Below are positions 1,429 through 55,656 of a stretch of 64,000 nucleotides of DNA, in pieces. Location of the stretch: NCBI GenBank assembly GCA_963514005.1, contig OY740818.1, forward strand, positions 11,160,001 to 11,224,000, given 5' to 3'. Position 1 is the first letter of the stretch, and the number at the start of each line of letters is the position of its first letter. A program made the translations under genes and the position numbers. This DNA comes from Raja brachyura. Lineage: Eukaryota. A model generated the notes under the pieces. It was not told the DNA's origin and did no database searches. It was given only the letters and a program-made list of their open reading frames with translations.

Positions 1429-1510
1429 ATACACAACCCTGTCATACAGAGCACCAGAAATGGTTAACCTTTACAGTGGAAAGTCCATTACAACTAAAGC
1501 TGATATATGG
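1429..1510 (+). CDS. AAK1: AAK1-like (NAK family) kinase, internal exon (subdomain [33 protein letters not shown]); earlier exons lie upstream of the window
   Basis: ttttcag acceptor, gtatgt donor, 82 nt; translation matches the NAK YRAPEM...KADIW motif. Confidence 0.93.
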
Positions 1511-1629
1511 GTATGTGAGAGTTGATCTATTTCTAAGCACAAATTGTCTGCTATACCTGTTCCTTACTGCTCTTTATATATCACACTTGATTACTTGCAA
1601 TTTATTTTGCTTTTATGAAATATCTTTAG

Positions 1630-1762
1630 GCACTTGGATGTTTACTTTACAAACTTTGTTTCTTCACTTTACCATTTGGAGAAAGCCAAGTAGCCATTTG
1701 TGATGGAAGTTTTACAATTCCAGATAATTCTAGGTACTCTGATGAGATACACAGTTTAATAC
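1630..1762 (+). CDS. AAK1: AAK1-like exon ([44 protein letters not shown])
   Basis: ctttag/gtaagt splice sites, 133 nt, in frame with previous exon. Confidence 0.95.
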
Positions 1763-1868
1763 GTAAGTAATCAAATTTTGTCAATTTAAAGTTTTCAAAC
1801 TAATTATTTGATTTATTTTTCTTTGAGTTTTCCTTACTTGTCTAAATGGATAAACTTTTTTTTTGTAG

Positions 1869-1972
1869 GATATATGCTTGAGGCTGACCCTGACAAGAGA
1901 CCTGACATTTATCAGGTTTCATTTTTTGCATTTAAGCTGTCAAAGAAAGTGTGTCCTGTTAAGAACATCAAT
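1869..1972 (+). CDS. AAK1: AAK1-like exon, end of kinase domain ([35 protein letters not shown])
   Basis: ttgtag/gtaagt, 104 nt, phase-consistent. Confidence 0.95.
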
Positions 1973-2519
1973 GTAAGTATGTTTTGTTGATGACTATCAT
2001 TACTAGCTTCAAAATAGTTACATGTATGGCCCTTTTTTAAAAACTATGAGCGAGTGATGCAAGCTGATGAATGCCGATGCGTAAAGGCTGTAAGATATTT
2101 TATGTAGATGCTGTTCATATTAAGTAATCGGTACCCAGATTCTTATTGTATTTTAGTCATATTCATTGGAATAGTATTGAAGATAAGGTGAAACAGCTTT
2201 GGCATTTCTGCAGGTCCATAACTGTCATATAGACACTCATTAAAATACTGCCAGATGGTAAAGTTTGATGTGTCACTTTTATATCCCATGTTAACTCAAT
2301 TAACCCATTCCTTCTCTCCAGAGATGCTGCCTGTCCTGCTGAGTTACTCTAGCATTTTGTGACTACCTTCGATTTAAATCAGTATCTGCAGTTCTTTCCT
2401 ACACAAACTCAATTGTTGTTATGCAATTGAATTCAAAAGTTGAAATGGCTTCAATTTAGAAAATCAACTTTTGGCTTTAGCCTAAAGTATTTTAAGGAAT
2501 CCCAAAATTAGTATTGATG

Positions 2520-2820
2520 AGCATCCCAAAGTATTTTTTGTAATTTTTCCCAGATGGAAAATTCAAATACTTAAAAGTGAGAGGGGCAAAGTTTAAAGGA
2601 GATGCGTGAGACAAGTTCTTTACACGGAGGGTGATGAGTGCCTGGAACATGCTGCTACGGGTGGTGATGGAGGCAGATATGATAGTGGTATTTAAGAGAC
2701 TCTTGGATAGGCACATGGATATGCAGCAAATGGAGAGATATAGATTATGTGCAGGCAGGTAAGGGTTGATCCTGGCATCATGTCCGGCACAGAAGAGGCT
2801 GTGCTATACTGTTCTGTGTA
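2520..2820 (+). mobile_element. Degenerate CR1-type LINE 3' end
   Basis: decayed similarity to the FFTQRVV..WN.L coding region and 3' UTR of the younger copies in the window. Confidence 0.65.
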
Positions 2821-3030
2821 ATTATTGTGAATGTTAAGAACGCTTTAAGAGTAAGTTGATCACATTCAGATTGAAGGTGCGTGGCATGGAGGGAAGAAGC
2901 AAATTCGAGGTTAGCAAGATTTAGTATTTCCATTATGAAAGTTTATGAATTTTGAAATTGACTGTTTGTATTTCATTTTTATTAACATATGTTGAACATA
3001 ACCACATTTATCATGTGACTTTGTTTCCAG

Positions 3031-51879: not shown

Positions 51880-52436
51880 TGCATAGAGTCATAGAGTGAT
51901 ACTGTGTGGAAACAGGCCCTTCGACCCAGTTCGCCCACACCGGCTAACTATGTCCCAGCTACCCTAGTCCCACTTGCCTGCGCTTGGTCCATAATCCTCC
52001 AAACGTGTCCTATCCATGTACCTATCCATGTTTTGTAAATGGTGGGATAATCCCATCCTCAACTACCTCCTCTGGCAGTTTGTTCCACACACCCACCACC
52101 CCGTGTGAAAAAGTTACCCCTCAGATTCCCATTAAATCTTTTCCCCTTCACCTTGTACCTATGTCCTCTGGTCCTCGATTCCCCTACTCTGGGTAAAAGA
52201 CTGTGCATCTACCCGATCTATTCCTCTCATGATTTTGTACACCTCCATAAGATCTCCCCTCATCCTCCTACACTCCATGGAATAGAGACCGAGCCTACTC
52301 AACCTCTCCCTATAGCTCACACCGTCTAGTCCTGGCAATATCCTGGTAGATCTTTTCTGAACCCTTTCAAGCTTGACAATACCTTTCCTATAACATGGTG
52401 CCCAGAACGGAACACAATATTCTAAATGCGGTCTCA
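51880..52436 (-). mobile_element. CR1-type LINE 3' fragment
   Basis: RPHLEYCVPFWAPCYRK ORF; (actctatg) tail. Confidence 0.9.
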
Positions 52437-53554
52437 CTAATGACTATGATCGGACTTCTTCGCCACAGTCAAGACTCACCACTGAGAGGCAGCAGATAAA
52501 ACATAGCGTTATGTTGAAACAATGAAGATTTGTATCACGAGACACAAAGAACTGCAGACGCTGGAATCTGGAGCAAAACACCAAGAGCTGCGAGAACCCA
52601 TTGGGTAAGGGGCAGCATCTGTTCCTTCTTTAGATTTAAAATACTATCTGTTCCTTCCCTGTTTAAGAGCTATCGTTGGAAAAACATTAACTGGTCTTTA
52701 ACAAGGTGGCAGCAAATTATAATAAAGAATGACAATGTTCTAAAAATCCACCAGCTCAACACAAATCAGTTTTGTTTAGGATTTGCAAAGAATGAACCAC
52801 CTAGAAAATAACTCAAGCAGACTGGTAATCCATCCTCCCACTTCAAATATATTTCAACTAGCACAGTGTGTGTCATCTACAAGATGCATTGCAGGGTCTT
52901 GCCGAGGGTATTCCAACAGTGGCTCCCACACCCACATTCTTGGAGGATTAGGGCAAGCCACCAATTGCAGCTTCGGCTGCACGTTGACATTGCCTTAGAC
53001 GCCACAAGCGCTTCATTGTCACAGGGTGGAAATGCTAGAATTTTTCTTTCAGATACAAAGTGCAAGCAGCACTTTAAGCTAGCGTGGACCATCACCTTCT
53101 CAAACATTATTAGATACAGTCACTACATCTTGATCTTGTCAGCAATGCTCAAAAGATGAAGTAGTCACTGAAGGCCTTTGAAATATCTTTAATCGGACTT
53201 TATCTTGCACTAAAACGGTGCACACTTGATTTACCCTCATGTGTACCCTGTGGACTTGATTGTAATCATGTGTATTCTTGTCCTTGACTGGGCAGCACGC
53301 AACAGAAGCTTTTCACTGTACCTCGCTACACGTGACAATAATAAAATAAACTATGTTAATCAAAATAATGTAGAAACAAGGAACCAAAGATGTTGGCTAA
53401 TAGACAAAAGGCTACAAAGTGCTGGAATAACTCAGCATGTTAGGTAGCATCTCTGGAGAACATGGATACATTAATTAGATTTCAGGTTAAACCCCTTCTT
53501 CAGACCCAAAACATCTGCGATCCATGTTCACCAGAGATACTTCCTGACCTGCCG

Positions 53555-53895
53555 ACAAGATTGTTAAGGGCTTGGACAAGCTAGAGGCAGGAAACATGTT
53601 CACGATGTTGGGGGAGTCCAGAACCAGGGGCCACAGTTTAAGAATGAGTAAGCGATTTAGAACGGAGACGAGGAAACACTTTTTCTCACAGAGAGTGGCG
53701 AGTCTGTGGAGTTCTCTGCCTCAGAGGGCGGTGGAGGCAGGTTCTCTGGATGCTTTCAAGAGGGAGCTAGATAGGGCTATTACAAATAGAGGAGTCAGGG
53801 GATATGAGGAGAAGGGGATGATCAGTCATGATCACATTGAATGGCGGTGCTGGCTCGAAGGGCCGAATGGCCTACTCCTGCACCTATTGTCTTAC
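53555..53895 (+). mobile_element. HER1/CR1 3' fragment
   Basis: GESRTRGHSL...FFSQRV ORF and 3' UTR. Confidence 0.88.
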
Positions 53896-55109
53896 TCCGA
53901 CACTTTGCGGCTTTTTATTAAAATAATGATTGTTGTTCTTGTTAAAGTGATAAATTAGGAAAATATCTGATCTAGTAGTTTAGGAGATCTAGTAGTTTCG
54001 GTAAGAGATGAAAATAAATGTTAATAAAGACCACCAAGAACTAGAATTGGTCCTTTAACCCACCCTCAATAATTAATTTCATTGCTGAGTAAATGGCTTG
54101 GCCCATTTCTTTCTCTGGCTGCCAAACCAGCTGTAATTTCCACCAATTTGCTTTTGTTTCAGATTCCATCAATCTGCAGTACTTTACTTCAGGAAAAGCT
54201 TTCCTCCCCGGCATGCTCTGGATGTGTTGGATGCCAGCTAACCAAATGCATTAATTAGTCAAGGTGGTGCTCGGTCACTGCCAAGGTTCTTTAGCTCCAT
54301 CAACCTGACCTCTCCGCACCACATGCTGGTACTGCAGTGCTCCAGTTTGTCAATGATGATGACTAGACATTTACTGTATTCATTTCATTTATTTATCTGG
54401 TCTTACGGCATGCAATAGTGCATAAACCCGTCAGCCGTTGTGCCAGCCTTCTCCCACGCATTCTCATTAAACACATTTTATTCCTCCCACATTACCAACA
54501 ACTTCCCCAGATTGCACTATTCACCTACACACCAGACGCTATTCACAAATTGCCAAATAATCTGCCAGCCCACACAACTTTGAGATGCAGAAGTCAGAGC
54601 ACTCGGGGAACACCCATGTGGCCACGGGGAGAACGTGCAAACTGCCCACAGACAGCACCCGAGGTCAGGATTGAACCTGGGTCGCTGGAGCTGTGAGGCA
54701 GCAGCACTACTCGCTGTGCCACTCTTCTTGTGCTTCCGACATCAATGTTAAACTGCTAAATTGATGAAAATCCTGCAGTGCCCCTCTGTCTAGAAGCTGA
54801 TGAAATGGGGGCCTTGCTTAAGCGATAAAGAAAAATTCATACAATACAAAGTCGCAATGTCTACTGATGGGATGTGGCTGGGTGTGTGAGGAAATGGCAC
54901 AGATTGAAGAACTTGGTCTCAGAATAGCACAGTGGAAGGCCAGAGCAGTTGGACAAAGGCAGCTAGAAGAAGTCTGTTTAGGAGATAAAGTTGTAGGCAT
55001 GCGCTAACAGTAGTGGGCCTAGTGCATTAAAGAGACGGTTACATGATTTGATCTGTAAATTCTTGTCAACTTCAAAAGCGAACGCTCACACACTCTGTTT
55101 ATTGTTTTT

Positions 55110-55395
55110 TGTTTTAGAGATACAACGCAGAAACGGGCCCTTCGGCCCACCGAGTCCACGCCAACTATTGATCCCCGTACACGAACACATCCTACCACTG
55201 GGGACAATTGGCAATTTTCCCCAAGCCAATTAACCAACAAACCTGTACATCACTGGAGCATGGGATGAAACCAGACAAAATCCTCACAGGTCACAGGGAG
55301 AATGTACAAACTCCGTGCAGACAGCACCCGTAGTCAGGATCGAACCCGGGTCACTGGTGCTGTAAGGCAGCAACCCTCCCACTGCGCCACCGTGC
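55110..55395 (-). mobile_element. HE1-type SINE; more decayed copies at about 590-790 (+), 51160-51378 (-), 54500-54725 (-)
   Basis: tRNA-like head cacggtggcgcag...cccgggttcgatcctg. Confidence 0.85.
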
Positions 55396-55471
55396 AGCCC
55401 CTTGGTGCTACTCAGGATAAATCTGCAGATTCATATCAATATTTCTGAAAGCTGTGGCAAAGTAAACATAC

Positions 55472-55656
55472 CTTCTGATGCATAAACTTGATGGCAAGTA
55501 AGCTCTATACCCATCGGTAATGTAAGGATTGCCTTTTAGAAAGGTTGGGATTTCTTCATAGTTGTAAAGACGAATTCCAATTTGCGAAAAGAGTGGCCAG
55601 TAGTTGTATCCACCAAGTTCAACTCGATGTAAACTCTTTAGGATATTATGAGTCAT
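55472..55656 (-). CDS. PAQR3: PAQR3-like first coding exon (MTHNILKSLHRVELGGYNYWP...NPYITDGYRAYLPSSLCIR)
   Basis: ATG at 55656, gtatgt donor, 185 coding nt; the six exons sum to 930 nt = 309 aa plus stop. Confidence 0.93.

What the first reader, a model, noticed from the sequence alone, without database searches (positions are those of the whole stretch)
1429..55656. AAK1-type kinase in BMP2K's neighbourhood beside a divergent PAQR3: possible extra ohnolog pair
Seen: the kinase and a PAQR3-like gene are convergent neighbours. Known (recalled): in human, BMP2K is tail-to-tail with PAQR3, whereas AAK1 has other neighbours. This kinase has AAK1 diagnostics ([53 protein letters not shown]) mixed with BMP2K-like residues (LCFF, FAFK, NINN, KSQ, S.LTIQ, NPPD...WNPFG, LLD.EF). 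The PAQR3 N-terminus is clearly diverged from the normally conserved QKLLKSAHYIELGSYQYWPVLVPRG. Inference: either a third AAK1/BMP2K paralog with its own PAQR3 paralog retained from vertebrate genome duplication, or true AAK1 keeping a PAQR3 ohnolog that mammals lost.
Basis: partly seen in the sequence, partly recalled or inferred. Interest (0 to 1): 0.72.

Follow-up and report, generated by a model that had tools for sequence, protein, structure and literature searches.

The report
Third AAK1-family kinase with extra PAQR3
This skate DNA holds the back half of an AAK1-type trafficking kinase gene, tail-to-tail with an intact PAQR3-type membrane-protein gene; the two are likely extra copies left by the ancient vertebrate genome doublings, and the kinase is kept across sharks, rays and chimaeras but likely lost in bony vertebrates such as us.

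Summary
Observation confirmed. The window holds the 3' exons of an AAK1-type kinase (+ strand, two alternative last exons, one ending VDQLIDL) convergent with an intact six-exon, 309-aa PAQR gene whose exons are joined in public contigs. The kinase is 94% identical to the Amblyraja 'AAK1-like' protein and sits in a clade found in 21 cartilaginous fishes and in no bony-vertebrate row retrieved. The little-skate genome tables show three loci: Bmp2k with Paqr3-2 on chromosome 1; Aak1-2 beside Gfpt1 and Antxr1 on chromosome 35 (true AAK1); and Aak1-3 with Paqr3-1 as consecutive gene IDs among chromosome-34 genes of the human-10q type. The window most likely matches the third pair. The title's 'BMP2K neighbourhood' is wrong, and most 'BMP2K-like' residues also occur in non-mammalian AAK1. 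Limits: the window is tied to chromosome 34 by inference; no shark true AAK1, full BMP2K or PAQR3 sequence was retrieved; the tree leaves the three kinases unresolved. No paper found describes it, and the scan had not noted it before. Retained ohnologs in sharks are a known kind.

The parts
1429..1510 (+). Kinase exon, subdomain VIII (YRAPE); upstream exons lie before the window
1630..1762 (+). Kinase exon, subdomains IX-X
1869..1972 (+). Kinase exon, subdomain XI; nearer AAK1 (49.4-49.8 bits) than BMP2K (39.9-40.0 bits)
3031..3110 (+). Post-kinase exon
3260..3468 (+). Exon with LTDP, KAGQ, LTIQP, TPRKR and a 27-nt tandem repeat
7438..7616 (+). Q-rich exon
11622..11780 (+). Q-rich exon
19497..19720 (+). 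Exon with LTPPSSPK and RAGHRR
22711..22868 (+). Exon with NPPD, WNPFGDD (WxxF-acidic and NPF motifs; their AP-2/EH-binding role is recalled) and LLDKEF
23937..24053 (+). Tail exon with one acidic-Phe-x3-Pro-Phe motif
24353..24442 (+). Tail exon, skipped in one Amblyraja isoform
28041..28067 (+). 27-nt optional micro-exon (AG..GT, in frame); present in Amblyraja isoform X1, left out of my models
   Evidence: read from the sequence and protein P0127
28956..29057 (+). Last common tail exon
29628..29722 (+). Short last exon ending [14 protein letters not shown], the AAK1-type PDZ-binding end
33941..35052 (+). Alternative long last exon, about 370 codons, in frame; weak BMP2K_C match (16 bits, cut-off 27) in its last 16 aa
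36002..37824 (-). 3' UTR of the PAQR3-like gene, down to an AATAAA at 36002
37825..37961 (-). PAQR3-like exon 6 (HxxWH motif, stop)
42426..42516 (-). PAQR3-like exon 5 (91 nt)
   Evidence: 91-letter gap between exons 4 and 6 in two contigs
44997..45194 (-). PAQR3-like exon 4
47196..47351 (-). PAQR3-like exon 3 (SxxxH and D residues aligned with AdipoR1/2)
51476..51638 (-). PAQR3-like exon 2 (ExxNIWxH motif)
55472..55656 (-). PAQR3-like first coding exon (cytosolic N-terminus); a splice acceptor lies 20 nt before the ATG

Best explanation
The window holds an AAK1-type kinase tail-to-tail with an intact, spliced PAQR gene, and the pair is likely a third, separately retained copy of an ancestral kinase-PAQR3 gene pair from the two vertebrate genome duplications, lying on the human-10q-type chromosome (little-skate 34). 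Inferred history: one pair on chordate linkage group I/Q was copied four times. Copy 2-alpha kept BMP2K and PAQR3, copy 1-beta kept AAK1 and likely lost PAQR3, and copy 1-alpha kept both genes in cartilaginous fishes, while bony vertebrates likely lost at least the kinase. This would explain why the kinase looks like AAK1 (its sister from the second duplication) while its neighbour mirrors BMP2K's, and why the PAQR3 looks diverged (split at the first duplication). Predicted function, untested: a NAK kinase acting on AP-2 and related substrates, whose short form would bind PDLIM-type PDZ domains through VDQLIDL, and a Golgi seven-helix scaffold docking partners on its N-terminal ~70 residues.
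For: Shown in the window: both gene structures and their convergence. Contigs of runs X1, X6 and X14 (three studies; RNA is the tool's guess) join PAQR exons 3-4, and X1 and X6 also bridge exon 4 to exon 6 with exactly 91 letters. The four coding differences listed there are all synonymous (the list was cut). PMC10115646 supplement file 2: LE18731 Aak1-3 and LE18732 Paqr3-1 are consecutive IDs; Bmp2k and Paqr3-2 lie at 101.66 and 101.56 Mb of chromosome 1; Aak1-2 lies at 7.86 Mb of chromosome 35 beside Antxr1-1, Gfpt1-1 and Pitx2-2. IDs bracketing LE18731 (LE18686, LE18736, LE18737, LE18748) map to chromosome 34, which also has an Aak1-named promoter at 12.40 Mb. SI Table 3 assigns chromosomes 34, 35, 1 and 11 to copies 1-alpha, 1-beta, 2-alpha and 2-beta of linkage group I/Q. 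The whale-shark orthologue model is fused with RBP3 sequence (RBP3 at human 10q11 is recalled). Orthologues in 21 cartilaginous species are named '-like' or hypothetical, none plain AAK1. They form a clade (100/97), are 75-79% identical to bony AAK1 over the kinase block while bony AAK1s are 86-90% identical to each other in most pairs, and carry 25-29 private changes against 12-18 in bony AAK1. The LIDL end is AAK1-specific and absent in BMP2K (PMC13346677).
Against: The window has no third gene, so its link to chromosome 34 is inferred from the same adjacency in the little-skate table, and IDs there are not strictly positional. No second, true AAK1 from any cartilaginous fish was among the 306 proteins retrieved, so the sequences alone also fit 'this is simply their AAK1'. 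The trees do not resolve sisterhood with AAK1: support 34/4 and 59/17 leans to BMP2K, and no grouping is rejected (p-AU 0.37, 0.33); BMP2K was present only as two mammalian fragments. The whale-shark chimera also holds an NFU1-like piece, and NFU1 neighbours true AAK1 in human (recalled). Only 4 of 12 rate tests exceed 3.84, and they are not independent. No PAQR3 sequence could be compared. SI Table 3 carries question marks on the 2-alpha cell.
Confidence: 0.8

Rival explanations
1. This is the true AAK1 orthologue (chicken-22-type chromosome, little-skate 35) that kept a PAQR3 ohnolog lost elsewhere; the chromosome-34 pair is a different locus.
For: LIDL end and AAK1-leaning kinase scores. 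No other chondrichthyan AAK1 retrieved. A clade of these proteins with bony AAK1 is not rejected. NFU1-like piece in the whale-shark model.
Against: The only AAK1-PAQR3 adjacency seen in the little-skate tables is in the chromosome-34 ID block; only Paqr3-1 and Paqr3-2 appear, though the tables list subsets of genes and the file was cut. RBP3 sequence in the whale-shark model. Uniform '-like' naming. Longer branch than bony AAK1.
Confidence: 0.13
2. A later segmental duplication or translocation in the cartilaginous-fish stem, not a genome duplication, created the pair.
For: The clade was seen only in cartilaginous fishes (0 of 207 other rows), and the tree does not date the split.
Against: The little-skate counterpart lies on the expected paralogous chromosome. 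An AAK1-like kinase with BMP2K's neighbour would need two independent moves.
Confidence: 0.04
3. This is the ordinary BMP2K-PAQR3 locus, with a BMP2K that kept ancestral AAK1-like residues.
For: Same convergent layout as human BMP2K-PAQR3 (recalled). Exon 1630-1762 scores equally against both kinases. The best trees lean to BMP2K without support.
Against: LIDL end present, which BMP2K lacks. BMP2K_C below cut-off. Exon 1869-1972 scores about 10 bits better on AAK1. Little skate has a separate Bmp2k/Paqr3-2 pair on chromosome 1. Orthologues lie on 22-44 Mb chromosomes in many species.
Confidence: 0.03

Closest known systems
AAK1 (AP2-associated kinase 1; NAK family)
   Same: Kinase exons nearer AAK1 than BMP2K; VDQLIDL end identical to the peptide crystallised with the PDLIM5 PDZ domain; short and long alternative ends, as in bony AAK1.
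   Different: Own clade with LTIQP, LLDK and QVSFF; 3' neighbour is a PAQR gene; the long exon lacks a BMP2K_C match that passes the cut-off, whereas bichir, pigeon and bream AAK1 long forms pass; inferred to lie on a different paralogous chromosome.
BMP2K / BIKE
   Same: Convergent PAQR3 neighbour; NAK kinase domain; long tail with acidic-Phe-x3-Pro-Phe motifs.
   Different: Has the LIDL exon that BMP2K lacks; weak BMP2K_C; little skate has BMP2K elsewhere.
PAQR3 / RKTG (PAQR family, Pfam PF03006)
   Same: HlyIII domain, family motifs, 309 aa; exon sizes 185/163/156/198/91 match human PAQR3 (recalled); the little-skate counterpart is labelled Paqr3-1.
   Different: N-terminus and helices appear diverged (recalled comparison only); splice acceptor just before the ATG; a second copy beside canonical Paqr3-2.
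Ohnologs retained in chondrichthyans and lost in bony fishes (PMC10115646: 19 of 68 cases, e.g. wnt6b, cspg5)
   Same: Same kind of differential retention on a known paralogon.
   Different: Here two linked genes are kept together; whether they are among the 68 could not be checked, because the held SI Table 3 is a chromosome table.

Membership tests
NAK (Numb-associated) kinases | Kinase domain of the AAK1/BMP2K/GAK type with intact catalytic motifs | tested here: met
   Window exons hit only AAK1, BMP2K and GAK in the PDB; the 94%-identical Amblyraja protein has intact GGF, ALKR, HRDLKVEN and DFG. The window itself starts at subdomain VIII.
AAK1 orthologue | C-terminal LIDL PDZ-binding end | tested here: met
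AAK1 orthologue | Kinase domain nearer AAK1 than BMP2K | tested here: met
   one exon ties
AAK1 orthologue | Lies beside GFPT1/ANTXR1 on the chicken-22-type chromosome | tested here: not met
   Indirect: in little skate that place is held by Aak1-2, while the Aak1-Paqr3 pair is in the chromosome-34 block; the window's link to that pair is inferred.
AAK1 orthologue | Groups with bony AAK1 to the exclusion of any other chondrichthyan copy | not testable with these tools
BMP2K orthologue | BMP2K_C domain (PF15282) above cut-off | tested here: not met
   16 bits against 27; no match in three orthologues' long forms
BMP2K orthologue | Lacks the LIDL end | tested here: not met
BMP2K orthologue | Groups with BMP2K in a tree | tested here: inconclusive
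   support 34/4 and 59/17, fragments only
PAQR family | HlyIII domain and the ExxNxWxH, SxxxH, D and HxxWH motifs | tested here: met
PAQR family | Seven transmembrane helices | tested here: inconclusive
   A simple hydropathy scan finds 5; no fold was predicted.
PAQR3 subfamily | Groups with PAQR3 rather than other PAQRs | not testable with these tools
   No PAQR3 sequence returned; the name rests on recall and the little-skate label.
Vertebrate genome-duplication ohnolog | Copies lie on paralogous chromosomes of one chordate linkage group | tested here: met
   For the little-skate counterpart: chromosomes 1, 34 and 35 are all listed under I/Q.
Vertebrate genome-duplication ohnolog | Duplication dated before the shark-bony fish split | tested here: inconclusive
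   three-way split unresolved

The most novel reading that the evidence does not exclude
Cartilaginous fishes run a third AP-2 kinase and a second PAQR3 with functions of their own (a faster-evolving kinase domain, a rewritten long tail, an altered Golgi docking N-terminus). The LIDL focal-adhesion tail, described as an AAK1 innovation of jawed vertebrates, then predates the second genome duplication. Some 'paqr3b' genes of bony fishes, including the zebrafish Chd7 target, may be this ancient ohnolog rather than teleost duplicates.
Probability: 0.3. Interest if true: 0.6.

Novelty: new member of a known kind. Interest (0 to 1): 0.45.

Why it matters
AAK1 and BMP2K are treated as the only two vertebrate kinases of their branch and are studied as inhibitor targets. 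A third member that carries AAK1's PDZ tail in BMP2K's gene context would date the split of their functions and offer a natural comparison for what the tail does. It would also show that the kinase-PAQR3 linkage is older than both genome duplications, and that 'AAK1' or 'PAQR3' picked from shark and skate data can be the wrong paralog. The kind of event is well known, which caps the surprise.

Tried and rejected
No whole genome was held, so loci could not be counted directly. PAQR exons found no relatives in the protein collection (1 candidate, none scored), among the representatives (one repeat-like false hit) or in the Atlas; a PAQR3 tree was therefore impossible. No RNA holder was listed on record. 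The long kinase exon had little or no cover in X1, X6 and X14, and X2 is probably DNA; this says nothing either way. GC content does not tell the loci apart: window 0.401, little-skate bins 0.421 (chromosome 34) and 0.424 (chromosome 35). Two AU tests on the 39-row tree did not finish and were rerun on 16 rows with a simpler model. Supplement searches without hits: PMC8216189, PMC8302630 (one file not searched), PMC7269912, PMC13489949 (two files not searched). PMC6604198 does not mention PAQR3; the PMC12698447 hit was an accession number; PMC12292340 does not print the PAQR3 N-terminus. No Rfam family in the window. Rejected: a pseudogene (open frames, joined exons, synonymous changes) and an AAK1/BMP2K mosaic.
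Full report
What is in the window. Six-frame scans and splice-site reading gave the 3' part of a kinase gene on the + strand and a complete six-exon gene on the - strand, both with GT-AG introns and open frames. The kinase part has 12 common exons from 1429, then either a short last exon ending [14 protein letters not shown] (29628-29722) or an in-frame exon of about 370 codons (33941-35052); a stop-free run that long has a chance of about 1e-11 at the local composition. 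The minus-strand gene encodes 309 aa. Three of its exons pass the Pfam HlyIII cut-off and exon 3 aligns to AdipoR1/2 with the S, H and D residues kept. Contigs from runs X1, X6 and X14 (three studies; RNA is the tool's guess) join exons 3 and 4, and X1 and X6 carry exactly 91 letters between exons 4 and 6, the size of exon 5. The four coding differences listed are all synonymous third positions (672 rows of differences were not shown).

Whose kinase. The window's model is 94% identical to Amblyraja radiata XP_032868709 and all its exons match that gene's isoforms, so the genome is a skate's; two earlier notes say the same. Against solved structures, two exons favour AAK1 (49.4-49.8 against 39.9-40.0 bits; 45.2-45.3 against 43.6-43.7), one ties and one hits AAK1 only. 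The Amblyraja protein scores 542-590 bits on AAK1 constructs and 515-520 on shorter BMP2K constructs. PMC13346677 (passages and section 13 read) states that the LIDL end is absent in BMP2K and binds the PDLIM5 PDZ domain at about 94 uM. The long exon matches BMP2K_C only weakly, while long forms of bichir, pigeon and bream AAK1 pass the cut-off.

The relatives. Two searches showed 120 rows each, of 4231 and 4446 hits, and two cluster look-ups added members. Of 306 proteins, 288 had a kinase block long enough to score, 15 were too short and 3 did not score. 81 rows were closer to the clade's references (79 named cartilaginous fishes of 21 species, chimaera included, and 2 unnamed); the other 207 were bony vertebrates, one tick and one unnamed row. 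The references were themselves chondrichthyan against bony, so this shows only that no bony row lies in the clade. In a 39-row, 462-column tree the clade has support 100/97, bony AAK1 72/72, and the relation of these two to the two mammalian BMP2K fragments is open (34/4). On 16 rows no grouping is rejected (p-AU 0.33-0.37). The clade has 25-29 private changes against 12-18 in bony AAK1 over 300 columns, significant in 4 of 12 non-independent tests; cartilaginous fishes usually evolve more slowly (recalled), so this hints at a paralog. No second chondrichthyan AAK1 was retrieved, which counts against my reading as far as sequences go.

Gene order decides it. In PMC10115646 (main-text passages; term searches and part 1 of supplement file 2, which was cut when stored; file 1 unreadable), LE18731 Aak1-3 and LE18732 Paqr3-1 are consecutive IDs, while Bmp2k and Paqr3-2 lie 0.1 Mb apart on chromosome 1. 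Aak1-2 lies on chromosome 35 at 7.86 Mb with Antxr1-1 (7.53), Gfpt1-1 (7.73) and Pitx2-2 (7.88), the neighbourhood of human AAK1 (recalled). IDs near LE18731 are Usp53-2, Synpo2l, Msx2-2, Adamts14, Ascc1, Ldb3-1, Zcchc24, Grid1-2 and Frmpd2, human-10q-type genes (recalled); the four bracketing IDs with positions all lie on chromosome 34, which also has an Aak1-1 promoter at 12.40 Mb. IDs are not strictly positional inside the chromosome, and whether Aak1-1 and Aak1-3 are one split gene or two is open; split models of this gene occur in two Chiloscyllium species. SI Table 3 lists chromosomes 15+34, 35, 1 and 11 as the four copies of linkage group I/Q. PMC7269912 (passages) places the 1-2 duplication before the alpha-beta one. 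The window matches the chromosome-34 pair by its adjacency; that step is inferred. The whale-shark orthologue model is a chimera holding RBP3 module 4 and an NFU1-like piece. RBP3 points to 10q and NFU1 to the AAK1 region (both recalled), and a chimeric model is weak evidence.

How it most likely works. Inferred: one kinase-PAQR3 pair was copied by both duplications; BMP2K with PAQR3, AAK1 alone, and this pair are the survivors. Predicted from family knowledge: the kinase phosphorylates AP-2 mu2 and similar substrates, and its short form docks on PDLIM PDZ domains; the PAQR protein is a Golgi scaffold whose first ~70 residues bind partners, as PMC6249397 shows for Sec13/Sec31 (passages) and PMC12292340 reports for p110alpha (passages). 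None of this was tested for these copies.

Novelty. Databases hold the kinase as 'AAK1-like' and the skate paper as numbered labels. Ten full-text searches (listings seen) gave no paper on a third NAK or a second ancient PAQR3, but the library lacks most subscription papers, and the list of 68 differentially retained ohnologues was not in the file I could read, so unseen supplements may name it. bioRxiv 870899 (passages) ascribes the zebrafish duplicates to the teleost duplication; PMC8183419 (passages) does not discuss the origin of paqr3b; PMC7473771 (passages) added nothing on tail sequences. The scan's notes held no such finding. Verdict: a real, likely undescribed pair of ohnologs of a known kind; interest 0.45.

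Noticed in passing
P0168 (whale shark XP_048472134), about residues 385-565: The orthologue's gene model has an NFU1 N-terminal piece and RBP3 module 4 spliced into its middle. The NFU1-like piece looks diverged and may be another retained paralog, or an assembly chimera. Neither piece is in the window.
   Followed up: partly
window 55657-55676, minus strand: A splice acceptor lies 20 nt before the PAQR ATG with no in-frame stop; contig X1 has 432 letters before exon 3, 84 more than the coding parts of exons 1-2, so an upstream exon probably exists and was not located.
   Followed up: no
window 33941-35052: The long last exon stays open across cartilaginous fishes but changes fast (92% to Amblyraja, 57% to a stingray, 39-43% to sharks), keeping acidic-Phe-x3-Pro-Phe motifs.
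   Followed up: partly
window 3399-3467: A 27-nt coding tandem repeat of 2.6 copies; the Amblyraja protein has one copy more.
   Followed up: no
little-skate chromosome 34 (PMC10115646 supplement): Both Aak1-1 and Aak1-3 appear to lie on chromosome 34: one split gene, two labels, or a further copy.
   Followed up: partly
   Followed up: partly
window 56960-57830 and 14381-15091: Open stretches that look like retroelement fragments (LTR-type on the minus strand; LINE reverse transcriptase on the plus strand); labels recalled, not tested.
   Followed up: no
zebrafish paqr3b (PMC8183419): Its origin (teleost duplicate or this older ohnolog) could not be checked.
   Followed up: no
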